In this document: positions 87 through 19,633 of the stretch, one piece after another
How positions within the stretch are numbered: the first letter of the stretch is position 1
Layout: every line of letters begins with the position of its first letter
From: a virus
Taxonomy: Duplodnaviria; Heunggongvirae; Uroviricota; Caudoviricetes
DNA: 21,849 nt
Reading direction: 5' to 3' (one strand)
Virus record (IMG/VR): IMGVR_UViG_2693429728_000015
Span: 1-21,849 of that record
Translations under genes and position numbers: made by a program
The notes under the pieces: generated by a model
Databases searched by the model: none
The model's input: the letters and a program-made list of their open reading frames with translations, nothing else
What the model was told of the DNA's origin: nothing

Positions 87-1926
87 CGCAGGGGTCGGCC
101 CATTTGAGCTTCAGATAGGAACGTTTGAATTCCTTTCACAAAATACATCACATACTGAACGTGAACATTCCCACTTTGATCTTAAGGCCAAAAAGTATGC
201 AGGACTAATGATTTTTAGGGATAGCTTGAGAGTATTACCTTATGGTCGAGTAGATAATGATTTCTTCCAGATAGAAGAAAGACGTTCATGGAATGCAGGG
301 CGATATTATTGGTCTAATAGAAGGATTTTTGGTTATATTGGAATTACTCAATCCAGTAATAAAGAGCTGAAAGATAAGTCGGGGAGAGAGGGATTCATAA
401 GAAACCAGGCTGCAAGAGAACTGAAAACTATTATATCTAATTTGTTAACTGAACTTGCTGATAGATTTTTTGGTTCACGTTCTGATGACCGTAAAGAGCT
501 TTTAGAACAAGTTAAGCGTGAAAAAGAGTTAAGAAAATCTGCTCAACAACAAGCTCGAAAATCAACACAAAAAAGTTTTTCAGAAGCTTTGAAGAATCAG
601 ACACCAGTTCTTGATGCTTCCTTGGAGGCTGTTAAAAGGCTGAAAACTAAGCTTGATAAAACTGATGGTTCGTTAGATTTAAACTATCTTAAAATTATAG
701 ACAGTGATCTTACAAACTTAGATGCGTTGCGCAGTGAAATTAAAACGCCTATCAAACCTCCAAAACTTGGAATGTATGAAGAGAAATATAGAGACTACAG
801 AGATAAATTTAATGAGTTCTCTGCGTATATTCTACAAATGAAGTTAGCAATTAATAAACTTGATTCTGAATTAAATAAACTTGAGCCTTCATTGTCAGCG
901 AAAAATCACCTTGAAAAAAATCAAGGTATTATTAATTCTAAACTAACTAAGTTTAATAACACGATAGAGGAGAAGATACATTCTCTTTTAAAAAAATGGG
1001 CCGATGAAATAAAGGTTGATCGAAGTGATTATTATGCTAAAACTATATCAGTTGTTGATTCAATAGATAATGATTCACAAATTGAAAATGTGTTTAATTT
1101 GCTCGATAGTTTATATGTTGAGTCAGTTGATACCCTAACTTTCAAATATCAATCAATAATAAAAGGTCTCGATGGATTATTTGAAGGTATAAACTTAGAT
1201 TCAGCATTCTCATTATCTGAAGAAGAACGCTCATATTTTGAAGAAAAAGCTAAAAGTTTAAACGCGCTTGCACAGTTAGGTATTAGTGTTGAGATAATAT
1301 CTCATGAACTTGAAGAAATGGATTCTATGGTAACCAGAGGACTAAACTCTCTTCCTACTTCTGTAAAAGAACACCCTGGTTTTTCATTGGCGTTAAATGC
1401 TCACAGATCGCTTACTCAACAAATACGTTTCTTATCACCTTTGAAAATATCAGGTTATCAATCCAGGCAGAGAATAACTGGAAAAAATATCATGGATTAT
1501 GTCCTGAAGTTCTTTGGGGAGCGTTTCGAACGGCAACGAATAACTATTGAATTTAGTGAAGAGTTTAAGCAAATCGCAATAACAGATATACCATCAAGGA
1601 TCTATCCTGTTTTTACTAATATTATCAACAATGCAATGTATTGGGTCAGTCTGTCAAATAATAGGCTCATAAAGATTGGTTTTGTGAATTCTTTGGTTAT
1701 CATAGCAAATTCTGGTCCGGCAATTGATACCGATGATATCCCGCGACTATTTGAACTATTTTATAGCAAAAGAGCAAATGGACATGGGGTAGGTCTGTAT
1801 CTATGTCGAGAAAACCTTGCTGTTGCACATCATAAAATATGGTATTCAGAACCTGATGAAGGCGATAACTATTTAATAAAAGATGGCGCTAATTTTGTGA
1901 TCCAGTTCAATGGAGTGGAGTTCTAA
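87..1926 (+). pseudogene. 3' portion of a histidine-kinase-like (GHKL) ATPase gene, with its 5' part removed by the IS3 insertion
   Basis: The reading frame is open from the IS3 boundary (AGVGPFELQIGTFEF...LMIFRDSLRVLPYG), so the annotated ATG at 208 is internal. A long K/E/L-rich helical middle region follows. The C-terminus has an H-box-like ISHELEEM (His codon 1303-1305), an N-box NIINNAMYW, a G1-like SGPAIDTDD, FELFYSKR and a G2-like GHGVGLYLCRENL. Confidence 0.7.
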
Positions 1927-1927
1927 T

Positions 1928-4201: not shown

Positions 4202-5431
4202 TTAGGCTACCAGAGCATTTGATCTTTGAGCTTGAACGTAATCACTCCACCATTGCATCAAACTCTGTCGCTCTATCAGATATTCTGCACGATTGTATGC
4301 TGCGATAATTTCATCTTTTTTCGAGTGGGCAAGCGCTGCCTCAAGAACTTCAGCTCTGAATTTACCAGACTCCTCTGCCGCTGTTCGTGCAATAGAACGC
4401 ATACCGTGAGCTACAAGCTCGCCTCCGAACCCCATTCGGATGATAGCTGCGTTGGCTGTTTGTTCATGCATATGATTAAGAGGCGCTTTTATGCTGGGGA
4501 AAACCCATTCTCTATGCCCACTTATTGATTTCATTAATTCAAGGATGCGCAAAGCTTCTTTACTCAAAGGAACTTTGTGAAGCTTTTTCATTTTCATGAA
4601 ATCAGCAGGAATGTTCCAAATGCTGTTGGTTGTATCAATATCAGACCACCTTGCGCGAACGGCTTCACCCGGACGAACCCATGTCAACAATTGCCATTCA
4701 ATTAGCATACGTGTTTCCAACCGGATTGACGCATTCGTCAAAGATTCCATAAACCTTGGCAATTCGCTTGGGGGAAGGGCAGGCATATTTTGCTTTTTTG
4801 GTTTACTGAATCTTTGACCAAGGTTGTCAGCCGGGTTGAACTCAATAAGTTCTTCAGTAGCTGCCCACCGGAAGATTTCATTCAGACGTGAAATGATACG
4901 GCGTAGAGTTTCCAATACGCCTCGTTGCTCAATAGGATCAAGGTGTTGTTTTAAGAGCTTAGGTCGGATCTCATTGATAGGGACATTACCCAGACCGGGA
5001 AAGACATTTCTCTCTAAGCTGCGCCAGATGTCTGCTGCATGGTCTTGTGAGATACCTGATGTCTTTACCTTCTCATCTAACCATTTCCGCGCTACGGCTT
5101 GGAGAGTGTGCTCAGTAGCACTCTTTAATGCCTTCGCCTTATCGTTGTTATGGATTTGGGGATCAACACCATTTGCCAGAAAGGAGAGATATTCATCACG
5201 TAAGGCTCTGGCTCTTGCAAGGGTAAGGTGAGGATATGTCCCAAGGCTCATTTTGGTTCTTTTCTTGCTCACTGGTACTGCATACCTGAAATACCAATTT
5301 TTCTTGCCTCCTTTCGCCAAAGGAGCGATTCGTAGAATCAGACCATCACCGTCAAACAAGTTGATTTCTTTATCGGCTGGCTTGGTGCTTTTGATTTCAG
5401 TGTCAGTGAGCTTCTTAGCGATTTTTGCCAT
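4202..5431 (-). CDS. P4-type (tRNA/tmRNA-associated) tyrosine integrase
   Basis: The N-terminus MAKIAKKLTDTEIKSTKPADKEINLFDGDGLILRI is typical of P4-like integrases. The C-terminus has ...VRPGEA..., HGMRSIARTA and AYNRAEYL (catalytic Arg, His-x-x-Arg and Tyr). Overall it resembles CP4-57 IntA as I remember it. I prefer the ATG at 5429-5431 (GAGGG upstream) to the ORF-track start at 5473, which has no Shine-Dalgarno sequence. Confidence 0.9.
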   Translation of the reverse strand: MAKIAKKLTDTEIKSTKPADKEINLFDGDGLILRIAPLAKGGKKNWYFRYAVPVSKKRTKMSLGTYPHLTLARARALRDEYLSFLANGVDPQIHNNDKAKALKSATEHTLQAVARKWLDEKVKTSGISQDHAADIWRSLERNVFPGLGNVPINEIRPKLLKQHLDPIEQRGVLETLRRIISRLNEIFRWAATEELIEFNPADNLGQRFSKPKKQNMPALPPSELPRFMESLTNASIRLETRMLIEWQLLTWVRPGEAVRARWSDIDTTNSIWNIPADFMKMKKLHKVPLSKEALRILELMKSISGHREWVFPSIKAPLNHMHEQTANAAIIRMGFGGELVAHGMRSIARTAAEESGKFRAEVLEAALAHSKKDEIIAAYNRAEYLIERQSLMQWWSDYVQAQRSNALVA

Positions 5432-5528
5432 TTTGGGACCCTCGGTTTTTGGACCCTTCTTAATGGGTCCCATTCAGGGTGCCATAACTCGTAGTTCTCA
5501 GCAATTCTCACTGGACGACAATAGACGT

Positions 5529-5804: not shown

Positions 5805-6572
5805 TTATTGTTTTATTATCTTAACGTGCGCCGTTCCTCCATTGACTTTTTCGAAATCTTGGAACAAGGCAGGGGCATCTTGAGTTACAATATCGTAAAG
5901 TTTTTCTGAAACTGTTCTCATTTCATAGTCACCCTGTATTGCTCCTCTCATTTCGAAGAAGTGTCGAATTGCGCGAGCATTTGCTGTGACGATTATTTTT
6001 GTCTCGGTTGCATTAGGCAATATAGAGCGAGAAGCGCTTCTTAGGGCCCGCATTTTTTCTTTTTTGTTCTCATACGATTGGTTTTCACGGATTTTTTTCA
6101 AGGATTGCTTATAAAAATCCAGACTACTTTCAATATGTTGGCACCATGACTTAAACAATTCTGGGTCATTTTTTACTTCTATAGGGGCTACGAATTCAGC
6201 ATCGGATTCATCATGATACTGTTGGGATAACTGGCTATATGAAAAACCAGCTCTATGCCGAACTAGCTGGTGTGTAAATGCACGAGATACCCCAGTAATT
6301 AAAAAGGTCCAGTTCAAATGTTCTAAGACACTTTCATGCCCTTGAATAATTAAATTGTTGATATATTGACTTGTAGTCCGTGGAGACTGCTTATCCTCTC
6401 CAAAAGACATATAACATAGCCTGCCAGCGGCCTCTACCAGAAGCTCAGCTTCGGTCGCCTGCCCTTTGCGAACCCATTGCAATGATGATGTGTTTAAAAA
6501 ATCATCAAAAACATTACTTTCAAATGAAGGGTGTGATATGCATTTTACTGATAAATCAGAGATTTTTATCAT
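5805..6572 (-). CDS. Divergent ThyX-like protein (flavin-dependent thymidylate synthase fold)
   Basis: ThyX signature blocks are present: AAGRLCYMS, QGHESVLEH, THQLVRHRAGFSYSQLSQQY (compare the RHR...S....SxRY motif) and ARAIRHFFEMRG. GGGAG lies 5 nt upstream of the ATG, and the start is 2 nt after the upstream stop. The gene is AT-rich relative to the phage backbone. Confidence 0.75.
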   Translation of the reverse strand: MIKISDLSVKCISHPSFESNVFDDFLNTSSLQWVRKGQATEAELLVEAAGRLCYMSFGEDKQSPRTTSQYINNLIIQGHESVLEHLNWTFLITGVSRAFTHQLVRHRAGFSYSQLSQQYHDESDAEFVAPIEVKNDPELFKSWCQHIESSLDFYKQSLKKIRENQSYENKKEKMRALRSASRSILPNATETKIIVTANARAIRHFFEMRGAIQGDYEMRTVSEKLYDIVTQDAPALFQDFEKVNGGTAHVKIIKQ

Positions 6573-6574
6573 TT

Positions 6575-7360
6575 TTACTCCCGTATAGCTTTTGGGGTGC
6601 TTACTTTAGCATCAACCTTTGGTTCGTTTGATTTAGCATTTTTTAGTAATTCAACGGTGCTTTTTAGGCTATTTATTTCATTTTGTTGAACTTTTATTGT
6701 TAATTCAAGATCTTTTGTACTACTGACATTACTGGATACTATTTGAAATAAGAAAGGAATTGCTAGGGTTATCAACGTTAGCATTAAGGCTGCTATCGCA
6801 ATTATAAAGCCAGTTTTTTTCGCAATGATTTTATTGATTTCTTTCGGAAGTCGTTTATCAAGTCCTGCAAAATCCTTTCCCATTCTAGAAAGTTGATCAT
6901 CATCCAATTTATTTACGATTTTTCCTTGGTAACCTTTAGTCGGTATTATTGTTTTAAATAATAACATTCGGGCTACTGCAGAATTTTGTGTCAATGAGAA
7001 TGGTTCTTTTGACATATTTACAAGATATATTGAAATTATGCCATTATATCCAGGGTCAATATGCCCTGGATTCGTCATGATAATTCCATTTTTTGATAGT
7101 GTGTTTCTTGGGAATATTACACCAGCTAAATTTTTTGCAAGTTGGAATTTTTCATTTAACTCTAATATTACAGTTTCCCCTGGCATCAGGATATGGTTGT
7201 TACGTGTTTTTTTATTGTCTTGACAGTCTGGTATATGTATTGTTTTTACAGAGAGATCAATGCTTGCAGATTGAACTTTAAATGTTCCATTTAATACCGT
7301 TAATGGATCAAAAATGTTGCCTCGCTGAATTTCATCATTGATTTCTATTTCAGACAGCAT
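6575..7360 (-). CDS. dUTPase/dCTP-deaminase (Dut/Dcd) superfamily protein with a C-terminal transmembrane helix and a coiled-coil tail
   Basis: Blocks align with E. coli Dut and Dcd: SASIDLSV, MPGETVIL, FPRNTLSKNGI and GHIDPGYNGIISIYLVNMSKEPFSLTQNSAVARMLLF. A hydrophobic segment, GFIIAIAALMLTLITLAIPFLFQIV (about nt 6737-6811), is followed by a heptad-like tail. AGGA lies 8 nt upstream of the ATG, 26 nt downstream of the int stop. Confidence 0.7.
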   Translation of the reverse strand: MLSEIEINDEIQRGNIFDPLTVLNGTFKVQSASIDLSVKTIHIPDCQDNKKTRNNHILMPGETVILELNEKFQLAKNLAGVIFPRNTLSKNGIIMTNPGHIDPGYNGIISIYLVNMSKEPFSLTQNSAVARMLLFKTIIPTKGYQGKIVNKLDDDQLSRMGKDFAGLDKRLPKEINKIIAKKTGFIIAIAALMLTLITLAIPFLFQIVSSNVSSTKDLELTIKVQQNEINSLKSTVELLKNAKSNEPKVDAKVSTPKAIRE

Positions 7361-7386: not shown

Positions 7387-8400
7387 TTATAAATTAGCCA
7401 GAGGGTTTTTTATTACTGCATCTTCAAGATGCTCTGGGGAAAAATGTGCATAAATCATAGTCATTTTTATATCAGAGTGGCCTAAAATATCTCGTAAAAC
7501 CAAAATATTACCACCATTCATCATAAAATGGCTGGCGAATGTATGGCGCAGAACGTGGGTGCATTGGCCCTCTGGTAACTCAATGTCAGCTCGCTTTACT
7601 GCTCGTTCAAAGGCTTTTCTGCAAGGAGTGAATAACTTCCCTCTGTTCTTAGGGAGTTCGTCATACAGATCCTGAGATATCGGCACGGTACGGTTTTTCT
7701 TGCCCTTAGTCTTGGTATAGGTGATCCGGTATTTCGATAACTGATGGCCCTGCAGATTTTCGGCTTCACTCCAGCGCGCGCCGGTGGCCAGGCATATTTT
7801 TGCAATTAAAAGTAGACTGGGGCTTTGAGAATCAGCACAGGCATCCAGCAGACGTTTAATTTCTTCCGGGGTCAGGAACGCCAGTTCACCCTCAGCAATT
7901 TTAAATGTTGGCAGCCCGGCAAGCGGATTGGGGGCTGACCAGTGGCCCAACTTTTTCAGTGTGCCAAAAACAGATGATAGGTTGCGCTGTTCAAGGTTTA
8001 CAGTGCGGGGCTTAACGGGCGACATAAGCGTGCCCTCTTCATTTCGCACTTCACCTTTTAGCCGCGCTTCTCGGTATTTAGTAAAATCACCGGCTGTCAG
8101 CTCTGAGGCGATGGGATCGCCTAGACCATTACAGATAATTCTAAGTTTCGCCATGAGGCGCTTGGGGTCTGCGAGTGTTTGACCATACAGGGAATACCAC
8201 TGCTCAATTAATTCTGATAGGTGTCGCCGATCTTCCTTTTCCCCCAGCCATGGCTTTTTGTTCACTTCTTCCATTGTGAAGCTTTCAAAAGCAATGGCTT
8301 CGCCTTTCGTAGCAAATTGCTTACGCACGCGCTTGCCATTGCGTCCATGGGGATAGCACTCGCACAACCATTTACCGTTTGGCTGTTTTCTGACAGTCAT
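7387..8400 (-). CDS. int: P2/186-type prophage tyrosine integrase
   Basis: It is 337 aa, the same length as P2 Int, and collinear with it as I recall it (GRNGKR.RK.F..K.EA.AFE; LATGARWSEAE; HVLRHTFASHFMMNGG; MIYAHFSPEHL). Confidence 0.92.
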   Translation of the reverse strand: MTVRKQPNGKWLCECYPHGRNGKRVRKQFATKGEAIAFESFTMEEVNKKPWLGEKEDRRHLSELIEQWYSLYGQTLADPKRLMAKLRIICNGLGDPIASELTAGDFTKYREARLKGEVRNEEGTLMSPVKPRTVNLEQRNLSSVFGTLKKLGHWSAPNPLAGLPTFKIAEGELAFLTPEEIKRLLDACADSQSPSLLLIAKICLATGARWSEAENLQGHQLSKYRITYTKTKGKKNRTVPISQDLYDELPKNRGKLFTPCRKAFERAVKRADIELPEGQCTHVLRHTFASHFMMNGGNILVLRDILGHSDIKMTMIYAHFSPEHLEDAVIKNPLANL

Positions 8401-8402
8401 GT

Positions 8403-9035
8403 TTAGATACTCTTTATTACTTTGACTGCACGCCCAATAACTTCCACATCATCAGTAGAGCACTCGAAAGACGCTTCATCTTGATTTACTACAATCTTAT
8501 TGCCGGGAATCCGCATGATTTTTGCAACAATAATCATTCCATCAATATTGATAAGCCAGAATCCATTGCTGACCTGTTTAATTGATTTATCGATGAGATA
8601 ACAATTAGTAGGGGTTTCTAAGAACATCAATTCTTCATAATCTGCAGGTAATATGCTGTGGTCTAGGAAAATCTCTTCATCAATACTGAGTTGTCCATTC
8701 TCCAGGGTTCCTTTAGGAATAGCTGGAGTTATGAGTTTGGATAACGGTTTAATTGCTTGTTTGTTCTCATTATGAGAACTTTTCTCAGGCTCAGCTCCTC
8801 CTTTCATGCTTCCCTGTCCTGTAGCTAACCAAAGCAACGAAACACCGGTTTCTAGTGCGCACTGAATTATCCAGTCAGCAGGAAAGCTGTCACGTAACAC
8901 TCTGTTTGCCATAGTGCTTTTTGAGACATTCAGGTGCTCGCTTAATGCCTGCTTAGTTGTGAATCCATAAGCCTCAAGCAGCCTTCCAATAGCTGCCTTA
9001 CCTCCCGTATCGGAACCCATTCTGATGTTTAACAT
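8403..9035 (-). CDS. cI: 186-type CI immunity repressor
   Basis: An N-terminal helix-turn-helix (GFTTKQALSEHLNVSKSTMANRVLRDSFPADWIIQCALETGVSLLWLATGQG) is typical of the phage CI repressor family. The gene is divergent from the early operon and sits directly upstream of int. GGAGA lies 6 nt upstream of the ATG. Confidence 0.8.
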   Translation of the reverse strand: MLNIRMGSDTGGKAAIGRLLEAYGFTTKQALSEHLNVSKSTMANRVLRDSFPADWIIQCALETGVSLLWLATGQGSMKGGAEPEKSSHNENKQAIKPLSKLITPAIPKGTLENGQLSIDEEIFLDHSILPADYEELMFLETPTNCYLIDKSIKQVSNGFWLINIDGMIIVAKIMRIPGNKIVVNQDEASFECSTDDVEVIGRAVKVIKSI

Positions 9036-11829: not shown

Positions 11830-12683
11830 GTACCATCCTGAAATGGGCGGGTAATAAAACTGCCATTATGTCCGAACTGAAAAAACATCTTCCTGCTGGC
11901 CCGCGACTGGTTGAACCTTTCGCGGGTTCCTGTGCTGTGATGATGGAGACGGATTACCCCAGCTATCTGGTTGCGGATATTAATCCTGATTTAATCAACC
12001 TCTATAAAAAGGTTGCTGCTGATTGCGAGGCGTTTATATCTCGTGCCAGAGCTTTATTTGAGGAAGCAAACAGGGAGTTGGCTTATTACAACATAAGGCA
12101 GGAGTTTAATTACTCCACTGAAATTACTGATTTCATGAAAGCGGTATATTTCCTGTATCTCAATCGTCATGGTTACCGTGGGTTATGTCGTTATAACAAG
12201 AGCGGGCATTTCAACATTCCATACGGTAATTATAAAAATCCGTATTTCCCTGAAAAAGAAATTCGCGCATTTGCAGAGAAAGCCCAGCGAGCAACGTTTA
12301 TCTGCGCCAGCTTTGATGAAACGCTGGCGATGCTGCAGGTGGGGGATGTGGTGTATTGCGATCCGCCTTATGACGGTACGTTTTCCGGCTATCACACTGA
12401 TGGTTTCACTGAAGATGACCAGTATCACCTGGCATCCGTTCTTGAACATCGGTCATCAGAAGGACATCCGGTCATTGTTTCTAACAGTGACACATCCCTG
12501 ATCCGTTCGCTGTATCGAAATTTTACTCACCACTACATCAAGGCAAAACGCAGCATCGGTGTAGCAGCTGGTGAGAGTAAATCTGCAACAGAAATCATCG
12601 CTGTTTCCGGGCCGCGCTGCTGGGTGGGATTTGATCCTTCGCGTGGCGTGGATAGTTCTGCCGTGTACGGAGTGCGTGCATGA
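11826..12683 (+). CDS. dam: Dam-type DNA adenine (GATC) methyltransferase
   Basis: [11 protein letters not shown]...[10 protein letters not shown]...[10 protein letters not shown]...YCDPPY, which includes the DPPY catalytic motif. At about 285 aa it is similar in size to E. coli Dam. ATGA overlap with the upstream gene. The ORF-track start at 11754 is an upstream extension. Confidence 0.9.
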
Positions 12684-15094
12684 GCCATGCTGATATGAAC
12701 AACTGCAGCGGCTTTAACGAGGTCGCCGCAGCATTCTCATGGAACAGCCCGAAAAAGGCCATTAACCCTTATCTGGACCCGGCGGAAGTTGCGCCGGTTT
12801 CTGCGCTTTCAAACCTGATCACTCTGTACGCTACTGATAACGAGCAGGAACAACTGCGCCGCGAGGCACTGAGTGATCAGGTTTGGGAGCGTTATTTCTT
12901 TAATGAATCCCGTGATCCTGTCCAGCGCGAAATGGAGCAGGATAAGCTCATTAGCCGGGCAAAGTTGGCGCATGAGCAGCAGCGTTTTAACCCGGACATG
13001 GTCATTCTGGCAGACGTTAACGCCCAGCCTTCCCATATCAGCAGGCCGCTGATGCAACGTATTGAATACTTCAGCAGCCTTGGCAGGCCAAAGGCTTATT
13101 CCCGCTATTTGCGTGAGACGATTAAGCCATGTCTGGAACGGCTGGAGCATGTACGCGACAGTCAGCTATCCACTTCTTTTCGCTTTATGGCAAGCCATGA
13201 AGGGCTGGACGGCCTGCTGATTCTGCCTGAAATGAGTCAGGATCAGGTGAAACGCCTGTCCACCCTTGTTGCTGCGCATATGAGCATGTGCCTTGATGCA
13301 GCTTGTGGCGATTTGTATGCCACCGATGACGTTAAGCCAGAAGAAATCCGCAAGACATGGGAAAAGGTGGCAGCAGAAACCCTGCGACTGGATGTCATAC
13401 CGCCTGCGTTTGAGCAACTCCGCCGGAAAAGAAACCGCCGCAAACCTGTGCCCTATGAACTCATTCCGGGTTCGCTGGCGCGTATGCTGTGCGCCGACTG
13501 GTGGTATCGGAAATTATGGAAGATGCGTTGCGAATGGCGGGAAGAGCAGTTGCGTGCTGTCAGCCTGGTCAGCAAAAAAGCATCTCCCTATGTCAGCTAT
13601 GAAGCCGTGATGCATAAACGTGAGCAGCGCCGTAAGTCGCTGGAGTTTTTCCGTTCTCATGAACTGGTGAACGAAGACGGCGACACGCTGAACATGGAGG
13701 ATGTGGTAAACGCCAGCAGCAGCAACCCGGCGCATCGCCGCAATGAGATGATGGCCTGTGTTAAAGGCCTGGAACTTATCGCGGAAATGCGTGGTGACTG
13801 CGCCGTTTTCTACACCATCACCTGTCCGTCACGTTTCCATTCCACGCTAAATAACGGCAGGCCAAACCCGACCTGGACCAACGCGACAGTAAGACAAAGC
13901 AGCGATTATCTGGTCGGCATGTTTGCTGCATTTCGTAAGGCTATGCACAAAGCCGGGTTGCGCTGGTATGGCGTGCGGGTGGCTGAGCCACATCATGACG
14001 GTACAGTTCACTGGCACCTGTTGTGTTTTATGCGCAAAAAAGACCGCCGCGCCATCACTGCATTACTGCGTAAGTTTGCCATCCGTGAAGACCGCGAGGA
14101 GCTGGGCAATAACACGGGGCCGCGCTTTAAGTCTGAGTTGATTAACCCGCGCAAAGGAACGCCGACAAGCTACATCGCGAAATATATCAGTAAGAACATT
14201 GACGGGCGTGGTCTGGCTGGCGAGATCAGCAAGGAAACGGGTAAATCCCTGCGTGATAACGCTGAATACGTGAATGCCTGGGCGTCTCTGCATCGTGTTC
14301 AGCAATTCCGCTTCTTTGGTATTCCGGGGCGTCAGGCTTATCGTGAACTGCGATTGCTGGCTGGTCAGGCGGCAAGGCAGCAGGGTGACAAAAAAGCAGG
14401 TGCGCCGGTACTGGATAACCCACGCCTTGATGCCATCCTGGCTGCTGCTGATGCTGGCTGTTTTGCGACCTACATCATGAAGCAGGGCGGCGTGCTGGTT
14501 CCCCGCAAATATCACCTTATCAGAACAGCTTATGAAATTAACGAAGAGCCGACCGCCTATGGCGATCACGGTATTCGTATTTATGGCATCTGGTCACCCA
14601 TTGCAGAGGGCAAGATCTGCACTCATGCAGTGAAGTGGAAAATGGTTCGTAAGGCCGTTGACGTTCAGGAGGCGGCAGCCGAACAGGGCGCTTGCGCCCC
14701 TTGGACTCGTGGCAATAACTGTCCCCTTGCTGAAAATTTGAACCAACAAGGGAAAGACAAATCAGCTGATGGGGATACCAGAACGGACATTACCCACATG
14801 GATGACAAGGAGTTGCACGATTACCTGCACAGTATGAACAAAAAAGAGCGCCGGGAACTGGCTGCAAGGTTACGCCTGGTGAAACCGAAACGGCGTAGAG
14901 ACTACAAACAGCGAATTACAGACCATCAACGACAGCAGCTCGTCTATGAACTGAAGTCCAGAGGATTTGATGGCAGCGAGAAAGAGGTCGATTTACTCCT
15001 TCGCGGCGGCAGTATTCCGTCAGGAGCAGGCCTGCGTGTCTTCTATCGGAACCAGCGTTTGCAGGAAGATGATAAGTGGCGGAACCTGTATTAA
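12680..15094 (+). CDS. A: P2 gpA-family replication initiation endonuclease (rolling-circle nickase)
   Basis: An HUH-type motif, [11 protein letters not shown], and the paired-tyrosine motif YIAKYISKN. The size and the position downstream of dam, at the end of the early operon, both fit. ATGA overlap with dam. Confidence 0.9.
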
Positions 15095-15186: not shown

Positions 15187-15206
15187 TACTGTAAATATAA
15201 ACAGTG
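15187..15206 (+). promoter_or_regulatory. LexA (SOS) box overlapping a promoter for the downstream two-gene operon
   Basis: TACTGTAAATATAAACAGTG fits CTGT-N8-ACAG and is close to the consensus TACTGTATATATATACAGTA. A TTTACA ... TATACT promoter-like pair lies immediately upstream and overlaps it. Confidence 0.75.
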
Positions 15207-15247: not shown

Positions 15248-15436
15248 ATGCAGGACTATTTTTTGGAGTCTTTGAAGCTCCAGCGCATTGATTTTTTTCT
15301 TAAGCTTGTAGCGGCTAGTGAGTGTAGTGATGAAGAGAAGGGGCTGGCCCTGCAGTGGGTTTCTGAATTGACTGATGAACTCATGGCAAAAATCAGAAGC
15401 CACGAATACAACCGCTCAATGGATGTCATCAGCTGA
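15248..15436 (+). CDS. SOS-regulated small protein, possibly a Tum-type antirepressor module
   Basis: AGGAGG lies 6 nt upstream of the ATG at 15248. The ORF-track start at 15146 would run across the promoter and LexA box. The functional assignment rests only on position, by analogy with the LexA-controlled tum of phage 186. Confidence 0.5.
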   Translation: MQDYFLESLKLQRIDFFLKLVAASECSDEEKGLALQWVSELTDELMAKIRSHEYNRSMDVIS

Positions 15437-15446
15437 GGTGACTTTT

Positions 15447-15680
15447 ATGCGCATTGAAATAATGATCGATAAAGAGCAGAAGATTAGCCAGTCTACCCTG
15501 GACGCTCTGGAGTCCGAGCTTTACCGCAACCTGCAACCCATCTATCCCAAGACCGCTATCCGCATCCGTAAAGGGTCGGCAAACGGCGTTGAGCTGAGTG
15601 GCTTAAAGCTTGATGAAGACAAAAAGCGGGTGATGGAAATTATGCAACAGGTTTGGGAAGACGACAGCTGGCTGCACTAA
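15447..15680 (+). CDS. DinI-family protein
   Basis: MRIEIMIDKEQKISQSTLDALESELYRNL...IMQQVWEDDSWL aligns with E. coli DinI (MRIEVTIAKTSPLPAGAIDALAGEL...ILQETWESADDWF). GAGGTG lies 7 nt upstream of the ATG. Confidence 0.85.
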   Translation: MRIEIMIDKEQKISQSTLDALESELYRNLQPIYPKTAIRIRKGSANGVELSGLKLDEDKKRVMEIMQQVWEDDSWLH

Positions 15681-15798
15681 GGAACGTTCCTGATGTAAGA
15701 ACTTGAATCTGACGTCAGCAAGGTTGAACAACGAGAGTAGCGAGGCGTTAGCCATGGGTAAAAAAGACAGTAATCACCAGATTATTTATCGGGGCTAG

Positions 15799-16014
15799 GT
15801 GCTGGAACGTTTAACCCTTGGCGACTGGGTCTTCTTTCAACGCCCAAAGGAGTGTGGCGGAGGTTTTTGGTTGGGCCGCATCTATGAAGACTGCTTCTGG
15901 CTTGAGCTGGAATTCCCCGTTTCGCTATATGACGGCCTGGGGTTTTTGATGGAAGTCACTAGGGTAGAGCAGAGAAGTGATGAGGTTGACGCGAATTATC
16001 CCCTGTTTGATTAA
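15799..16014 (+). CDS. Hypothetical 71-aa ORF with a GTG start
   Basis: Only an open frame with a weak GGGG upstream. The product is Trp/Phe-rich and I recognise no motif. Confidence 0.25.
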   Translation: MLERLTLGDWVFFQRPKECGGGFWLGRIYEDCFWLELEFPVSLYDGLGFLMEVTRVEQRSDEVDANYPLFD

Positions 16015-16033
16015 AAATGTATTAGCTTATAAT
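16007..16033 (+). promoter_or_regulatory. Sigma-70-like promoter for the 203-aa membrane-protein gene
   Basis: TTGATT (16007-16012) or TTTGAT (16006-16011), a 15-16 nt spacer, then a perfect TATAAT (16028-16033), 30 nt upstream of the ATG. Confidence 0.45.
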
Positions 16034-16062
16034 GGAATACTATTTTTGCAGGTGGGGGCGCA

Positions 16063-16674
16063 ATGGATTTAGTCTTTAAAGTTCTGGCTTCGTTGGGTGG
16101 GGTGTCTTTTGTTGCATCTGGCATATTTGTTTGGATCGGGAAAGTTTATTTAGAAAGATATAAGTCGCGGCTAAACAAAGATATTGCTGAATTTCAATCA
16201 CAACTGAGTGCAACTAATGAAAGAATAAAGGCTAAGTTAGACAATTCTGTTTATGTAACGAAAGCGTATTTTGATAAGGAGTTATCAGCATATAGTCTCA
16301 TTTGGAATTCGATGTTTGAAACCAGAGAAAGCGTGCTTAAGCTGAGGCCTGCGCTGGATCATGTTGACCCCAACGAACCATTTGAAGAGAGAAAATTTAG
16401 AAGGTTGAAAGTTTTTTCTGATGCATTTAACACTTTTGTTACAAGTGTTGAATCTAACAAACCGTTCATCTCACCAGAGGTTTATATAATCTTGGACCGT
16501 TTCCGGAAGGAATGCCTTTCAGAGTCAATATCGTTTAAGCATAGCGATCCAGAATTTGACGGGCAAAATTATTGGAAAGAGGCGGAGTTGAACCATACAA
16601 CCATCATCAAGCTTTTTGATGAGACGTGTGATGCAATTCGAGACAGGATGCACACATTAACTGTGGTTACGTAG
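16063..16674 (+). CDS. Single-pass membrane protein of unknown function (prophage cargo, or moron)
   Basis: The N-terminus has a hydrophobic helix, LVFKVLASLGGVSFVASGIFVWIG. The rest is helical and charged. The gene has its own promoter and terminator and is AT-rich relative to the backbone. Confidence 0.7.
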   Translation: MDLVFKVLASLGGVSFVASGIFVWIGKVYLERYKSRLNKDIAEFQSQLSATNERIKAKLDNSVYVTKAYFDKELSAYSLIWNSMFETRESVLKLRPALDHVDPNEPFEERKFRRLKVFSDAFNTFVTSVESNKPFISPEVYIILDRFRKECLSESISFKHSDPEFDGQNYWKEAELNHTTIIKLFDETCDAIRDRMHTLTVVT

Positions 16675-16766
16675 GTTTCCAAAAAGTCTCGATGCCCGCT
16701 TTGGAGATTGTGCATGTCTATGCCGCATGAATCCGCATGATCGTTTGAGGATCGTTTTAGCTGAGG

Positions 16767-16790
16767 CCCGCCAGGAGTGGCGGGATTTTG
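16767..16790 (+). terminator. Rho-independent terminator after the 203-aa gene
   Basis: CCCGCC (16767-16772), loop AGGAGT, GGCGGG (16779-16784), then ATTTTG. Confidence 0.55.
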
Positions 16791-16834
16791 CTTATGTCAT
16801 GCAGGCGCATGAAAACCGCTACATAAAGCGGGCA

Positions 16835-16853
16835 GGCGTGGCGGGGATACGAG
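16835..16853. other. Candidate cos site (19-nt cohesive-end sequence of a P2/186-family phage)
   Basis: GGCGTGGCGGGGATACGAG shares its first 13 nt with the 186 cohesive end as I recall it (GGCGTGGCGGGGAAAGCAT). The following GCGCGCT matches the sequence just inside the P2/P4 left end (GGCGAGGCGGGGAAAGCACTGCGCGCTGA). Confidence 0.65.
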
Positions 16854-16870
16854 CGCGCGCTCATTACTTT

Positions 16871-16890
16871 TATAATTCTAGGGTTATAAT
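16871..16890 (+). promoter_or_regulatory. Possible promoter(s) for the KAP NTPase gene
   Basis: Two perfect TATAAT hexamers (16871-16876 and 16885-16890) lie 30-45 nt upstream of the ATG. I could not identify a convincing -35 element. Confidence 0.3.
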
Positions 16891-16918
16891 ACGGGGCTGT
16901 CTTTCTAGGAGAAAACAC

Positions 16919-18571
16919 ATGTCCTTAGAGTTTATCAAAGAACAGTTGTCAGATTTTATCTCATCTACAGAACCAGAAGTAATGGCTATACAGGGTGAAT
17001 GGGGAATTGGTAAAACCTATACTTGGAATACGTTCCTAAAAGATAATAAAGATAAGGTTGCATTTAATAGATATAGTTATGTCTCTCTTTTTGGTATAAA
17101 TTCACTAGATTCTTTAAAGTATTCTATTTTTGAGAATGCAATTACAAAGGAATATATTGGAAATAAACCTGATTTGGAGACAGCAACAACAAACGCAAGT
17201 GGACTTTTTGAATCATTTTCTCGAAAAGCAGCAGGTTTGTTAAAAGAAGTTCCTGTTGTAAAAAACTTCTCTACGACACTTGAAGCAATGTCATTTCTGA
17301 CCGTTTCTAAAATGATTGTAGTAATAGATGACTTAGAAAGGCGTGGCAAAAATTTAGATGTTAAAGATGTTTTAGGGCTAGTATCTCTATTAAAAGAGCA
17401 GAAGGATTGTAAGGTGGTTCTATTGCTTAACAATGGCACAGCTAGTATGGAGGATTATTCTACTTATAAAGAAAAGGTCATTGATAGAGATATCACTTAC
17501 AATCCAACACCAGAAGAATGCGCAGATATAGCCTATAAAGGTGATTCTCATGTTTATAACTTGTTAAGTAAATATTCCATTTCTTTAGGTATCAAGAATA
17601 TTCGAATCTTAAAAAAGATAGAACGTTTTTTCGTGTCCTTAATACCAAATATTATAGGTGATGTTGAGACAATTTCAAATGAAGTTGCGCATTCATTAAC
17701 TCTGTATTGTTGGAGCCATTACGGATTTTCTCCAGAGGGAGATGTGCCATCACTAGAATATATTAGGGGAGTGAGGAATATATATACTTATAATGACAAG
17801 GAAGAAGGCCATGAGAAAATCTGGCTTAATACCTTGCTTAAATATGGATATAGAAAAACGAATGATCTTGATGAGGTTCTTATTGATATGGTTAGATATG
17901 GCTATCTTGATAAGAGCAGTTTCCAAAGACAAATAAGCCTAAGGAATGAGGAGATTACGCGTGATAATAAACGAGGTTCCTTATCTGAGGCATGGCAGTT
18001 CTTTCATAATTCATTTGATGACAATCAAAATCAGGTTGTTGACAAGCTATATCAAGCGGTGGTTGATGGGATGAAGTATGTGACTCCAAGTGATTTAGAT
18101 AATGTTGTCGGACTATATAGGGATTTCGGAGAGAATGCTAAGGCGAGTGAATTGATTGAACAGTTTATTAATTATGGTAACGATGCTCTAAAGGAATATG
18201 TTCAATCTATTTATGTGAATGTTCATCCCGTAAGAGATACTGAGTTGTTGTCAAAAATTCAAGCCTATTCTAAGATTATAAATATTGATGGTTCAATATA
18301 TGATGTTCTTAAGAAATTATCAGGTCAGAATGGTTGGTCTGATAGACATGAGGAAATATTGGATGCTGCTTCAGTAGATGACTACTATCAATTATTTAAA
18401 AATGTCATTCTTGATGGTGGTGATTCAATAATAGCTACGGCGCTTAAATTCGGAAATTTTAGTAATGGTTCTGATAGAATGAATCGTATAGGGAAAAAGG
18501 CAAGGGATGCCTTGATAAGAATTGGAGATGAATCGGCGATTAATAAAATGCGTGTAAGGCGATTTTTGTGA
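16919..18571 (+). CDS. KAP-family-like P-loop NTPase, 550 aa (prophage cargo; candidate anti-phage protein)
   Basis: AGGAG lies 8 nt upstream of the ATG at 16919. Walker A is IQGEWGIGKTY (nt 16994-17017). Walker B is MIVVIDDLERRGKNLDVKDVLGLVSLLKE (nt 17312 onward), the DDL(D/E)R signature of KAP NTPases. This is the most AT-rich gene in the window. The ORF-track start at 16727 runs through the terminator and cos and is rejected. Confidence 0.75.
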   Translation: MSLEFIKEQLSDFISSTEPEVMAIQGEWGIGKTYTWNTFLKDNKDKVAFNRYSYVSLFGINSLDSLKYSIFENAITKEYIGNKPDLETATTNASGLFESFSRKAAGLLKEVPVVKNFSTTLEAMSFLTVSKMIVVIDDLERRGKNLDVKDVLGLVSLLKEQKDCKVVLLLNNGTASMEDYSTYKEKVIDRDITYNPTPEECADIAYKGDSHVYNLLSKYSISLGIKNIRILKKIERFFVSLIPNIIGDVETISNEVAHSLTLYCWSHYGFSPEGDVPSLEYIRGVRNIYTYNDKEEGHEKIWLNTLLKYGYRKTNDLDEVLIDMVRYGYLDKSSFQRQISLRNEEITRDNKRGSLSEAWQFFHNSFDDNQNQVVDKLYQAVVDGMKYVTPSDLDNVVGLYRDFGENAKASELIEQFINYGNDALKEYVQSIYVNVHPVRDTELLSKIQAYSKIINIDGSIYDVLKKLSGQNGWSDRHEEILDAASVDDYYQLFKNVILDGGDSIIATALKFGNFSNGSDRMNRIGKKARDALIRIGDESAINKMRVRRFL

Positions 18572-18601: not shown

Positions 18602-19633
18602 CTAATTTAATGAGTAATCATTAAATGCTATGATTTTTTCATTTAGCCAAGTATTAATTTCTATAAGCCTTTTTTGTAACGGAATTAATTCATTTCGGAC
18701 AAAGACTTTACTAGCCTTTTCCACATCCCCAAACCCCCCAACATTATTCGGCATTATCCCCATCATTTGCGGCGGCACGCGGTGTGCCGCCATCATGTCG
18801 TCCCGGCTCACGTTCTTGATATTCAAAAACTCATCCTTCGCTGCGACCTCTGACAACGGGATAATCTGAAGCCCGTCCTTTTTGCCGTTAGGCGAGTACA
18901 TAAACAGGTTGCGGAAGTTGCCCGGACCTTTGGCGCTTTTCATCGCGTTGCGGAGGTTGTTCACATCCTCTTGGTTTTGCGCAGCATCGGTCATATACAT
19001 GATGAAGCCTGCATGGCTGCCGTTAATGTAATACTTACGGCGGAACAACGTGGCGGACTCGTTGAGCAGAGCTGACGGAATGGCAGAAAGATAACCGGGC
19101 AGGCCGTAGATCTCCTGGTTGATATCCGGTTCCATCAGATGAAAGATGCTGCCTTTCGTGAACTGATACGGCTGCGTAGTCATGCCGTATTGCACAAACC
19201 AGTAGGTATCCAGGTCTAACCCGCGTCGGGTGTATTTTGCCAGCGCAGGTTCAAGGGCGATAACTTCACCGAAGCGGTTCGTGCGTTTCTCCAGGTAAGC
19301 GTTACCAAATACCAGATAGTCCTGCACAAAACGTGAAAAAGCCTGCTGGCTGAGAAGCGGGTGAGGGATGTAGGTACTGGTCAGAATGTTGCATTTCACC
19401 GCAATTGGTGAACTGTGATGCACGGCAGCGCGGAAGGTTCGCGCCAGTCCGTCAAAACTCACTGGCGGCTCATACCAGCGATCTGTCTGTACGCATTCTA
19501 CATAGTCCAGCAGTTCGCGGCGGTCCAGAACAGGAACGGGATCGCCAAAGCTGAATGCTTCGGCTGAAGTCTGGCTTTTGTGCTGAATCTGGTTCGTCGA
19601 CACAGCGCGGTTCTTCTTACTCTTTCCCATCAA
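18602..19633 (-). CDS. Q: P2 gpQ-family portal protein
   Basis: It is 343 aa, the size of P2 Q. It is adjacent to and overlaps (ATGA) the terminase gene on the same strand, the characteristic Q-P arrangement divergent from O. Confidence 0.9.
   Translation of the reverse strand: MMGKSKKNRAVSTNQIQHKSQTSAEAFSFGDPVPVLDRRELLDYVECVQTDRWYEPPVSFDGLARTFRAAVHHSSPIAVKCNILTSTYIPHPLLSQQAFSRFVQDYLVFGNAYLEKRTNRFGEVIALEPALAKYTRRGLDLDTYWFVQYGMTTQPYQFTKGSIFHLMEPDINQEIYGLPGYLSAIPSALLNESATLFRRKYYINGSHAGFIMYMTDAAQNQEDVNNLRNAMKSAKGPGNFRNLFMYSPNGKKDGLQIIPLSEVAAKDEFLNIKNVSRDDMMAAHRVPPQMMGIMPNNVGGFGDVEKASKVFVRNELIPLQKRLIEINTWLNEKIIAFNDYSLN

What the first reader, a model, noticed from the sequence alone, without database searches (positions are those of the whole stretch)
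16063..16674. Autonomous single-pass membrane-protein moron at the right end of the prophage genome
- The gene has its own sigma-70-like promoter with a perfect TATAAT, its own terminator, and a composition unlike the backbone.
- It sits where P2 carries its exclusion genes (old, tin).
- The product has one N-terminal transmembrane helix and a roughly 175-aa charged helical domain with no motif I recognise.
- Small membrane proteins at this locus could act in superinfection exclusion or abortive infection.
Basis: partly seen in the sequence, partly recalled or inferred. Interest (0 to 1): 0.5.

Follow-up and report, generated by a model that had tools for sequence, protein, structure and literature searches.

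The report
Lysogen-expressed membrane gene beside phage cos
This is a real accessory gene of a P2/186-like prophage, transcribed on its own in the lysogen, that encodes a membrane-anchored cytoplasmic four-helix-bundle protein from a large uncharacterised family; it sits in the slot where P2 keeps its phage-exclusion genes, but its function has never been tested.

Summary
The ORF 16063-16674 is a real gene. dN/dS is about 0.11 against Enterobacter orthologues.

**What it encodes.** A 203-aa protein with a single N-terminal transmembrane (TM) helix, predicted N-out/C-in. A coiled-coil stalk and a four-helix bundle follow on the cytoplasmic side.

**Where it sits.** It is the last gene before the cos site of a 186/Fels-2-type P2-like prophage. 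This is the slot where P2 carries tin and old.

- The "own terminator" lies in the conserved cos block, which about 1270 E. coli genomes share.
- The gene lies downstream of a LexA-controlled orf62-dinI operon, with no terminator in between.
- The KAP NTPase next door is an independent cargo on the other side of cos.

**Support for "autonomous moron".**
- Published RNA-seq of the 96%-identical LF82/Cartapus orthologue, with identical promoter hexamers, shows it transcribed about 60-fold above its upstream neighbour.
- That study lists it as one of two Cartapus morons.
- Rousset 2022 catalogued the protein as P2-hotspot "system 39, 1 TM" with 103 occurrences, and did not test it.

**Family and function.**
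- The family has at least 384 clusters at E<=1e-10, has no Pfam or PADLOC model, and has no fixed partner gene.
- The relatives whose surroundings could be read lie in accessory slots of phages, satellites and plasmids.
- An anti-phage role (exclusion or abortive infection) is the best guess, at about 0.4, and is unproven.

The parts
15189..15204 (+). Perfect LexA box (CTGTAAATATAAACAG) heading the orf62-dinI operon upstream of the gene
   Evidence: One search found the only zero-mismatch CTGT-N8-ACAG site in the window; sequence. The LF82 orthologues of orf62 and dinI rise from log2 about 4 and 3 to about 11 and 9 inside macrophages. Attributing that rise to SOS is my inference.
15248..15680 (+). 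orf62 (15248-15436) and a DinI/Tum-like gene (15447-15680), backbone genes of the SOS-controlled operon
   Evidence: Pfam DinI 3.8e-24. RefSeq annotation of the orthologues.
15754..16014 (+). phrog_2100 gene that always travels with the target. It is broken here by a CAG-to-TAG nonsense codon at 15796-15798
   Evidence: phrog_2100 1.4e-28. The alignment shows it intact in LF82/Cartapus, with a lost start and a frameshift in Enterobacter. It is barely transcribed in LF82.
16007..16033 (+). Sigma-70-like promoter: TTGATT, 15-nt spacer, TATAAT
   Evidence: Sequence. Both hexamers are invariant across E. coli and Enterobacter. The scan did not flag it because of the 15-nt spacer. Function is inferred from LF82 RNA-seq: target 8.6 against upstream gene 2.7 (log2) in DMEM at 6 h.
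16063..16674 (+). The gene: a 203-aa single-pass membrane protein. The TM helix is residues 7-25 (nt 16081-16137), the coiled-coil stalk runs to about residue 60, and the four-helix bundle covers residues 67-198
16710..16863 (.). Conserved cos block of the phage backbone. It holds the terminator-like hairpin at 16767-16784 and the cos core GGCAGGCGTGGCGGGG at 16831-16846
   Evidence: The block is shared by about 1272 E. coli genomes. The alignment shows conservation ending at 16863. The Cartapus record annotates the equivalent of 16803-16861 as a putative cos site. The core starts exactly 157 nt after the target's stop in 32 of 32 loci. Hairpin.
16919..18571 (+). KAP-family P-loop NTPase, an independent defence-candidate cargo on the other side of cos. 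It is not part of the finding's gene
   Evidence: PADLOC PDC-S49 3.2e-27 and Pfam KAP_NTPase 3.6e-7. It occurs without the target in many genomes. The target occurs with at least 15 other cargos.

Best explanation
**What it is.** The gene is an independently acquired, independently transcribed accessory gene (a moron) of a 186/Fels-2-type P2-like prophage. It travels as a roughly 1-kb module (15753-16709) together with a decaying phrog_2100 gene. The module is inserted between the SOS-controlled dinI/tum operon and cos, so the gene is the last one at the right end of the packaged DNA.

**What it makes.** The product is an inner-membrane protein with a 6-residue periplasmic N-terminus. It has one TM helix rich in small residues (GG, S, G), a cytoplasmic coiled-coil stalk, and a cytoplasmic four-helix bundle. 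The bundle carries an invariant polar set: E73, R95-P96, P134-F135, E154, R195.

**How it is expressed.** In the lysogen it is made from its own promoter at about the level of the CI repressor. SOS read-through adds to this.

**Most likely function (inferred, about 0.4).** It is a stand-alone anti-phage factor.
- The membrane-tethered bundle would recognise a component of an incoming or replicating phage at the inner face of the membrane.
- The TM and coiled-coil part would then oligomerise.
- The result would be either blocked genome entry or a permeabilised membrane (abortive infection).

**Shown and inferred.**
- Shown: gene reality, architecture, position, modularity, and transcription of the orthologue.
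- Inferred: topology, oligomerisation, and any anti-phage activity.
For: **Real gene under purifying selection**
- dN/dS is about 0.11.

**Module boundaries**
- Against a KAP-only prophage the module spans 15753-16709.

**Position and linkage to cos**
- The cos core starts 157 nt after the stop in 32 of 32 loci.
- At least 15 different cargos lie across cos, most of them known or candidate defence systems: retron, OLD-like, ShosTA, AbiU/AIPR, PDC-S33, PDC-S49, PDC-S59, PDC-M03.
- This is the same slot as P2 tin/old (PMC9122126).

**Transcription of the orthologue**
- CARTA_47 in LF82 is 7-fold above prophage background in LB.
- In DMEM at 6 h it reads log2 8.6, against 2.7 for the gene just upstream and 8.1 for CI.
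- In macrophages at 6 h it reads 10.5 (PMC9928086 Table 1 and S1 Table).
- The promoter hexamers are identical to the window's.

**Distribution**
- Patchy: 52 of 5426 E. coli genomes.
- 103 of 18,150 P2 hotspot loci, listed as a separate one-gene "system 39, 1 TM" (PMC9122126 Table S5B).

**Relatives with readable context**
- The relatives whose surroundings could be read occupy accessory slots: beside a satellite integrase, before a prophage terminase, and on a Rep3/ParB plasmid with AbiTii.
- Others lie between ParB and CI of phage Riah, and between TerS and TerL of phage Maintenon.
- Eight relatives of the WLGKVWA subfamily lie on IMG/VR viral contigs; their 4HB coverage was not checked.

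**Topology and modular N-terminus**
- 82 of 90 family sequences carry more K+R on the C-terminal flank of the TM helix.
- The N-terminal TM plus coiled-coil module recurs fused to other C-terminal domains. This is the modular sensor/effector pattern typical of conflict systems.
Against: **No functional test**
- No functional test exists. The gene is not among the systems cloned by Rousset et al. (no peptide hit in Table S2).

**No database matches**
- No PADLOC, Pfam or NCBIfam model matches, and there is no homologue by sequence in the PDB.
- The fold match is only to generic four-helix bundles.

**Low prior for untested P2-hotspot genes**
- Not all P2-hotspot genes are defensive. Only 3 of 8 tested P2 candidates protected (PMC9122126).
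- Only 15-32% of unknown P2 genes are predicted to be defensive (PMC13586616).

**Unclear or confounded context**
- In distant genomes, neighbours of N-terminal-module relatives are mostly housekeeping genes. That sample is confounded, because only 22 of 78 loci cover the bundle.
- Strong induction in DMEM and macrophages could point to a host-adaptation role instead.
Confidence: 0.42

Rival explanations
1. It is a host-fitness (lysogenic-conversion) moron. The membrane-tethered protein would help the lysogen cope with envelope or intracellular stress, for example in macrophages, and would have nothing to do with phages.
For: - The LF82 orthologue rises from log2 5.5 (LB overnight) to 8.6 (DMEM, 6 h) and 10.5 (macrophage, 6 h).
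- P2 hotspots also carry non-defence cargo such as partition systems and cytolethal distending toxin.
- Many N-terminal-module relatives sit among housekeeping genes.
Against: - CI and the neighbouring DUF4145 cargo show the same LB-to-DMEM rise, so the pattern may reflect growth phase plus SOS read-through.
- Relatives with readable context are in phages, satellites and plasmids of unrelated hosts. That is hard to square with a niche-specific host function.
- The protein has no exported domain.
Confidence: 0.2
2. It is the membrane partner of the adjacent KAP NTPase, so the two form a two-gene system.
For: - The two genes are adjacent and on the same strand in the window and in E. coli 504237.
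- KAP NTPases are often membrane-associated (my own knowledge).
- Rousset's Table S5A lists them in one locus.
Against: - The cos site lies between them, so they sit at opposite ends of the packaged DNA.
- Only 1 of the 52 E. coli genomes with the gene also has the KAP gene. KAP occurs alone in many genomes.
- The identical Enterobacter protein precedes six different cargos among the eight places shown. Overall at least 15 cargos are seen.
- The KAP family is a single-gene candidate, PDC-S49.
Confidence: 0.04
3. It is a phage life-cycle gene. It could be a lysis or lysis-timing factor, or a factor acting on induction, made as part of the SOS-induced tum/dinI transcript.
For: - It lies downstream of a LexA box with no terminator in between.
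- Read-through is visible in macrophages.
- It has a single TM helix, as antiholins do (my own knowledge).
Against: - It is absent from the great majority of P2-like prophages, and pseudogenised in the STEC copy examined, L095.
- It is transcribed about 60-fold above dinI and phrog_2100 without SOS.
- The late and lysis genes are silent in the same data.
- Its bulk is cytoplasmic, unlike the periplasmic domain of antiholin RI (the RI comparison is from my own knowledge).
Confidence: 0.08
4. It is a selfish toxin-like or addiction element, or otherwise neutral cargo with no benefit to phage or host.
For: - Phylogenetic distribution is very patchy and rare. Most representative clusters are singletons.
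- It occurs in 1 of 72,556 plasmids and in 3 different phages (4 of 50,697 records).
- TM proteins are often toxic (my own knowledge).
Against: - Purifying selection is strong and the sequence is identical across prophages with different cargos.
- There is no adjacent antitoxin-like gene. The only linked gene, phrog_2100, is decaying.
- It is constitutively expressed in healthy lysogens.
Confidence: 0.1

Closest known systems
P2-hotspot "system 39 (1 TM)" in Rousset et al. 2022, Table S5B (PMC9122126)
   Same: It is the same protein, and the sequence printed there is about 96% identical. It is listed as a one-gene, domain-less, 1-TM entry with 103 occurrences in E. coli P2-like hotspots. The locus of strain 504237 is listed with KAP_NTPase.
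   Different: That entry is a catalogue line only. There was no test, no family analysis, no structure and no expression data.
CARTA_47 / LF82_789 of prophage Cartapus (Misson et al. 2023, PMC9928086)
   Same: It is the orthologue, 96% identical at the amino-acid level, in the same position with identical promoter hexamers. It was shown to be one of two transcribed morons of the prophage.
   Different: The cargo across cos is DUF4145, not KAP. The upstream phrog_2100 gene is intact there. No function is assigned.
P2 tin and old
   Same: They occupy the same genomic slot, between gene A and cos at the right end. They are lysogen-expressed accessory genes that exclude other phages (plus established knowledge).
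   Different: There is no sequence or fold relation. Neither Tin nor Old is a membrane protein (my own knowledge). No PADLOC model matched the target.
Membrane-anchored single-gene abortive-infection or exclusion proteins: lactococcal AbiP, HK97 gp15, P22 SieA, T4 Imm
   Same: All are small prophage- or plasmid-borne inner-membrane proteins that act alone. AbiP in particular has an N-terminal anchor and a cytoplasmic domain. This comparison is from memory and was not tested here.
   Different: No homology to any of them was tested or found. Imm and SieA are polytopic. The exposed part of gp15 is not a four-helix bundle.
Four-helix-bundle sensor domains of chemoreceptors and histidine kinases (Adeh_2942, Tar, PcaY, TorS)
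   Different: Identity is only 5-10%, and de novo designed bundles score almost as well, so this is fold similarity only. Those domains are periplasmic and are followed by a second TM helix and a signalling domain. This domain is predicted to be cytoplasmic and ends the protein. There is no Pfam hit.
1-TM effector of the P4 "RT-nitrilase + 1TM" system (Rousset 2022)
   Same: It is similar in size, with an N-terminal TM helix followed by a helical domain, and it is hotspot-borne.
   Different: hhalign probability is 0.3%. That protein needs a partner, and this one has none.

Membership tests
Moron (independently transcribed accessory gene of a prophage) | Own promoter active in the lysogen | tested here: met
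   TTGATT-15-TATAAT at 16007-16033, conserved. The published RNA-seq of the orthologue shows about 60-fold more transcript than the gene just upstream. The evidence is indirect, since it comes from the orthologue and not from this strain.
Moron (independently transcribed accessory gene of a prophage) | Own terminator | tested here: not met
   The only hairpin followed by a T-run (16767-16784) lies in the cos block, which about 1272 genomes share.
Moron (independently transcribed accessory gene of a prophage) | Present or absent among close relatives, with deviating composition | tested here: met
   An insert of 957 bp is absent from KAP-only prophages. It occurs in 52 of 5426 genomes. GC is 38.6% against 50-56%.
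P2-like defence hotspot cargo (Rousset 2022) | Lies between gpA and gpQ next to cos, in a region of high gene turnover | tested here: met
   It is listed in Tables S5A and S5B.
Known or candidate anti-phage defence protein (PADLOC-DB 2.0) | Match to a defence HMM | tested here: not met
   No family matched at E<=0.1.
Superinfection exclusion or abortive infection protein | Reduces infection by another phage, by blocking entry or by premature cell death | not testable with these tools
   This needs plaque, injection and growth assays. No published test was found.
4HB_MCP-type sensor domain | Sequence-profile match and periplasmic location between two TM helices | tested here: not met
   No Pfam hit. 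There is one TM helix only, and the positive-inside rule puts the bundle in the cytoplasm. Only the fold matches.
HEPN | Conserved Rx4-6H motif in a four-helix bundle | tested here: not met
   R193 and R195 are conserved, but the following His (H197) is not conserved in the 25-sequence alignment.
Two-gene system with the KAP NTPase | Consistent co-occurrence and co-transcription | tested here: not met
   Only 1 of 52 genomes has both genes. The cos site separates them. At least 15 alternative cargos are seen.
Phage lysis or structural gene | Conserved across the phage group and expressed with the late genes | tested here: not met
   It is absent from most P2-like prophages. It is transcribed while the portal and gpA genes are silent.

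The most novel reading that the evidence does not exclude
The protein founds a new, phylum-spanning family of single-gene immune proteins. A cytoplasmic four-helix-bundle sensor would be tethered by a coiled coil to an oligomerising TM helix. The same TM plus coiled-coil "WLGKVW" module would be re-used with several other unknown C-terminal sensor domains. That would make it a modular membrane-effector toolkit carried at the DNA ends of temperate phages.
Probability: 0.25. Interest if true: 0.65.

Novelty: new member of a known kind. Interest (0 to 1): 0.4.

Why it matters
**If the protein protects lysogens**
- It would add a one-gene, 203-aa defence or exclusion family with no detectable relative among known systems.
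- The family has at least several hundred clusters across many phyla.
- It would also give a function to one of the two morons of the AIEC LF82 prophage Cartapus. That moron reads about 30-fold higher in macrophages at 6 h than in LB overnight culture.

**Independent of function**
- The analysis refines the anatomy of the P2 hotspot. It consists of two separate variable slots flanking a 154-bp cos block.
- The left slot sits inside an SOS-controlled transcription unit.

**Annotation**
- It flags a RefSeq mis-annotation, "valyl-tRNA synthetase".

Tried and rejected
**Searches that found nothing**
- Pfam, NCBIfam and PADLOC scans gave nothing usable. The weak Val_tRNA-synt_C coiled-coil hit explains the RefSeq misnaming.
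- A PDB profile search gave no hits.
- Foldseek against PDB and BFVD gave nothing below E 0.01.
- The afdb50 library was unavailable.
- hhalign against the 1-TM partner of the RT-nitrilase system was negative.
- Rfam found nothing in the window.
- The P2 19-nt cos sequence is not present within 3 mismatches. The cos here is of the Cartapus/Fels-2 type and was located through the Cartapus annotation and alignment.
- Literature searches by accession and by peptide found no main-text mention.
- Supplements of the 2026 NAR paper are not held.

**An error I corrected**
- I first concluded that phage Cartapus carries the gene alone. That was wrong. The record is opened at cos, and DUF4145 follows across the junction.

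**Limits of the neighbourhood analysis**
- The search for related loci with the diverse alignment failed.
- The run with the WLGKVWA subgroup returned 78 loci. Only 22 of them cover the bundle domain.
- The Pfam and PADLOC summaries of their neighbours are therefore confounded. I use them only to say that no conserved partner exists.
- Most representative homologues are singletons on short contigs, so their context could not be read.
Full report
**1. The observation**

The ORF 16063-16674 (+) exists and encodes 203 aa.
- Hydropathy shows one TM-grade segment at residues 7-25, Kyte-Doolittle 2.0, and none later. The remainder is highly charged, with 28 K+R and 30 D+E.
- GC is 38.6%, against 53% for gpA, 50% for the portal gene and 56% for the terminase gene (profile).
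- A perfect TATAAT lies at 16028-16033 and a TTGATT at 16007-16012.
- The spacer is 15 nt, so the consensus scan, which accepts 16-18 nt, did not list the site.
- The first terminator-like hairpin on the + strand after the stop is CCCGCCAGGAGTGGCGGG plus AUUUUGCUU at 16767-16784.
- The gene is not a chance ORF. Against Enterobacter orthologues dN/dS is 0.10-0.14 at dS about 0.8. Within Enterobacter dN is 0 at dS up to 0.10.

**2. The setting**

The window holds a P2-like prophage of the 186/Fels-2 type. Its genes, in order:
- integrase, 7387-8400 (-)
- CI repressor, 8403-9035 (-)
- Dam methylase
- gpA, 12680-15094
- orf62
- a DinI/Tum-like gene
- a phrog_2100 gene
- the target
- a KAP P-loop NTPase, 16919-18571
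- portal, 18602-19633 (-)
- large terminase (-)

These assignments rest.

A perfect LexA box (CTGTAAATATAAACAG, 15189-15204) precedes orf62. No terminator-like site lies between it and the target.

**3. The "terminator" belongs to cos**

- Megablast shows that window 16710-16860 is present in about 1272 of 5426 complete E. coli genomes. The 950 bp upstream (15760-16709) are present in only 52.
- Alignment shows a block conserved from about 16710 to 16863 in prophages with and without the target, and in Enterobacter. All similarity ends after 16863, where the cargo differs.
- The record of phage Cartapus, which is prophage 4 of E. coli LF82, is opened inside this block. It annotates the first 59 bp as the putative cos site, equivalent to window 16803-16861.
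- In 32 of 32 loci carrying the gene, the core GGCAGGCGTGGCGGGG starts exactly 157 nt after the stop codon.
- So the gene is the last one at the right end of the packaged DNA. The hairpin is backbone sequence. The KAP NTPase lies at the opposite (left) end, between cos and Q.
- The 614-aa ORF that starts at 16727 is an artefact that reads across cos. RefSeq starts the KAP gene at the position equivalent to 16919.

**4. Modularity**

- Relative to a prophage that has only the KAP gene, the window carries a 957-bp insert, 15753-16709. The insert holds phrog_2100 plus the target.
- The same module, 84% identical at the DNA level, occurs in Enterobacter prophages. There an identical 203-aa protein precedes six different cargos among the eight places shown: a retron RT with STM3845, an OLD-like ATPase, AAA_21 plus RloB, a Schlafen/AlbA_2-HATPase protein, an AIPR protein and an unknown 223-aa protein.
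- Adding E. coli and IMG/VR loci brings the total to at least 15 cargo types across cos. The additional types include:
  - KAP/PDC-S49
  - DUF4145
  - PDC-S59
  - AbiU
  - a RelA/SpoT-like PDC-S33
  - ShosTA
  - PDC-M03
  - several unknowns
- Only one complete E. coli genome (strain 504237) pairs the gene with KAP. KAP often occurs without it. The two are independent.
- The linked phrog_2100 gene is decaying. It has a CAG-to-TAG nonsense codon in the window (15796-15798), and a lost start plus a frameshift in Enterobacter. The target stays intact in these lineages.
- Eleven E. coli genomes carry a shorter copy at about 90% identity. Several are Shiga-toxin-producing (STEC) strains. In the one I examined (L095) the gene is fragmented.

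**5. Published evidence**

*Rousset et al. 2022 (PMC9122126).*
- They defined the gpA-gpQ, cos-proximal region as a defence hotspot.
- Their Table S5A lists this protein as "hypothetical", for example with KAP_NTPase in CP025862.
- Table S5B lists it as a one-gene entry, number 39, with 103 occurrences and the comment "1 TM".
- Its peptide is absent from the table of cloned systems, so it was not tested.

*Misson et al. 2023 (PMC9928086).*
- LF82_789 = CARTA_47 is the 96%-identical orthologue. The paper lists it as one of two Cartapus morons, 7-fold above prophage background.
- Their S1 Table gives log2(fpkm+5) values, two replicates per condition:

| Gene | LB overnight | DMEM 1 h | DMEM 6 h | Macrophage 1 h | Macrophage 6 h |
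|---|---|---|---|---|---|
| Target (CARTA_47) | 5.4 / 5.6 | 7.1 / 7.3 | 8.6 / 8.5 | 9.0 / 9.0 | 10.5 / 10.5 |
| phrog_2100 (CARTA_46) | 3.3 / 3.1 | 3.3 / 3.6 | 2.8 / 2.6 | 4.9 / 5.2 | 7.5 / 7.7 |
| DinI (CARTA_45) | 2.9 / 3.1 | 4.4 / 4.4 | 3.6 / 3.8 | 7.9 / 7.9 | 9.2 / 9.3 |
| orf62 (CARTA_44) | 4.2 / 4.6 | 5.5 / 5.5 | 4.1 / 4.7 | 9.8 / 10.0 | 11.0 / 10.9 |
| CI (CARTA_35) | 5.1 / 5.0 | 8.2 / 8.4 | 8.1 / 8.0 | 9.3 / 9.3 | 8.1 / 8.1 |

- gpA and the portal gene stay flat at about 2.5-3 in all conditions.
- The roughly 60-fold step between phrog_2100 and the target in DMEM shows a promoter directly upstream of the target. The promoter hexamers are identical in LF82 and the window.
- The macrophage rise of orf62 and dinI fits the LexA box, with transcript declining along the operon. 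That link to SOS is my inference.
- This evidence comes from the orthologue, not from this strain.

**6. The protein and its family**

- Close homologues (66-100% identical) occur in Escherichia, Salmonella, Enterobacter, Citrobacter and Cronobacter. They are named "hypothetical" or, wrongly, "valyl-tRNA synthetase".
- An exhaustive profile search found 910 representative clusters at E<=1e-3 and 384 at E<=1e-10. Most of the 150 listed are 180-240 aa, and most match through the C-terminal domain.
- In a 25-sequence alignment spanning 25-83% identity, E73, R95, P96, P134, F135, E154 and R195 are invariant. G26, F70, W81, R114, N177, I192 and R193 are nearly invariant.
- AlphaFold2 with this alignment gives pLDDT 87. 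One helix, residues 2-60, forms the TM segment plus stalk. A four-helix bundle follows (67-92, 107-131, 138-160, 168-198). A short beta bridge between residues 63-65 and 199-201 closes the bundle.
- Across 90 family sequences the flank C-terminal to the TM helix has 2.8 K+R on average, against 0.7 on the N-terminal side, and 82 of 90 follow this pattern. By the positive-inside rule the bundle is cytoplasmic.
- The R-x-R near the C-terminus is not a HEPN motif, because the following His is not conserved.

**7. Context of distant relatives**

- No neighbouring gene family recurs.
- Relatives with readable context sit in mobile elements:
  - next to the integrase of a satellite-like element
  - just before the terminase of a Chloroflexota prophage, downstream of MmeI-type and N6/N4 methyltransferase genes
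  - on a Rep3/ParB plasmid that also has AbiTii
  - between ParB and CI in Pseudomonas phage Riah
  - between the small and large terminase genes in Clostridium phage Maintenon
- A pattern search with the WLGKVWA-subgroup alignment also found eight relatives on IMG/VR viral contigs. I did not check whether they cover the bundle.
- The family is rare. It occurs in 3 different phages (4 of 50,697 records) and 1 of 72,556 plasmids, and most clusters are singletons.
- A caveat applies to the genome sample. Of the 78 loci retrieved through the N-terminal WLGKVWA pattern, only 22 cover the bundle, 12 cover it partly, and 44 share only the TM plus coiled-coil module. The Pfam and PADLOC summaries of their neighbours are therefore not a clean sample of the family. 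Those summaries show a mix of housekeeping genes, recombinases and some defence genes such as GajA, PD-Lambda-1 and a type III methylase.
- This caveat is itself informative. The N-terminal module is fused to at least three other C-terminal regions without Pfam matches, including proteins of about 440 aa in L070 and L084.

**8. Interpretation**

*Firm points.*
- It is a real gene, under purifying selection, horizontally shuffled and AT-rich.
- It is the last gene before cos, in the tin/old slot.
- Its orthologue is transcribed from its own promoter in a lysogen.
- It encodes a single-pass membrane protein with a helical bundle, has no fixed partner, and is independent of the KAP gene.

*Inferred points.*
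- N-out/C-in topology.
- Oligomerisation through the TM helix (rich in small residues) and the stalk.
- The function.

*Weighing the function.*
- The slot, the lysogen expression, the turnover, the company of defence cargos and the modular N-terminal module favour a stand-alone anti-phage role.
- Published success rates for untested hotspot genes are 3 of 8 for P2 and 6 of 8 for P4. Between 15% and 32% of unknown P2 genes are predicted to be defensive.
- I put the anti-phage reading at about 0.4.
- Because the bundle is cytoplasmic, I favour sensing at the inner face of the membrane, followed by membrane permeabilisation or a block of genome translocation. A periplasmic exclusion mechanism seems less likely.
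- The main rival is a host-fitness moron, at about 0.2. It is supported mainly by the strong induction in DMEM and macrophages, which CI and the DUF4145 cargo share.

**9. Novelty and score**

- The gene is already catalogued (Rousset, system 39) and is already known to be transcribed (Misson). It has never been characterised.
- The family description, the predicted topology and structure, the cos linkage, the SOS context and the independence from KAP are new but incremental.
- It is a reasonable, cheap candidate for a defence assay rather than a surprise. I score interest at 0.4.

Noticed in passing
window 208-3676 (+), with integrase at 4202-5473 (-): Two large low-GC ORFs sit next to a P4-type tyrosine integrase. 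One is a histidine kinase with HEF_HK and HATPase_c domains (572 aa). The other is a 588-aa protein with a Response_reg_2 receiver domain. Neither hits PADLOC 2.0. The pair looks like a two-component conflict or defence system on a separate integrative island.
   Followed up: partly
window 5805-7360 (-): A ThyX (flavin-dependent thymidylate synthase) gene and a dCTP-deaminase/dUTPase-like gene lie between the two integrases, at about 31-39% GC. This is a nucleotide-metabolism pair at the int-proximal end of the prophage. Neither hits PADLOC.
   Followed up: partly
window 15189-15204: A perfect LexA box lies upstream of orf62 and dinI. In LF82 the orthologous genes are induced by up to about 100-fold in macrophages.
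   Followed up: partly
window 15754-16014: The phrog_2100 gene linked to the target has a CAG-to-TAG nonsense codon at 15796-15798. It is intact in LF82/Cartapus and degenerate in Enterobacter.
   Followed up: yes
window 16710-16863: A 154-bp cos block separates two independent variable slots. The cos core starts exactly 157 nt after the target's stop in 32 of 32 loci. The 614-aa ORF beginning at 16727 is an artefact that reads through cos into the KAP gene.
   Followed up: yes
window 16919-18571: The KAP-family P-loop NTPase matches the PADLOC candidate PDC-S49 and is of the same general kind as the recently validated single-gene "Reve" system of P4 hotspots. Two TATAAT-like hexamers at about 16871-16892, directly after cos, may be its promoter.
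   Followed up: partly
L001 3964-4575, L093 4804-5415 (RefSeq WP_016237789, WP_020218871): RefSeq names the protein "valyl-tRNA synthetase". This is probably a spurious call from the sub-threshold coiled-coil match to Val_tRNA-synt_C, at 16.7 bits against a cutoff of 25.9.
   Followed up: yes
L070 8001-9335, L084 525-1844, L091 7986-8996, L089 89-886: These proteins share only the N-terminal TM plus "SWLGKVWA" coiled-coil module with the family. They carry other C-terminal regions without Pfam matches, some after long coiled-coil repeats.
   Followed up: partly
L095 4392-5390: In E. coli 2012EL-2448 (one of eleven genomes with a shorter, ~90% identical copy) the gene is broken into fragments in a degraded P2-type hotspot, next to an apparently intact PRTase plus DprA pair of the ShosTA type.
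   Followed up: partly
BFVD hit P51700 (Haemophilus phage HP1): A weak structural match (E 0.16, TM-score 0.37) was found to an uncharacterised 205-aa ORF in the int-cI intergenic region of the P2-like phage HP1. It may be an analogous moron.
   Followed up: no
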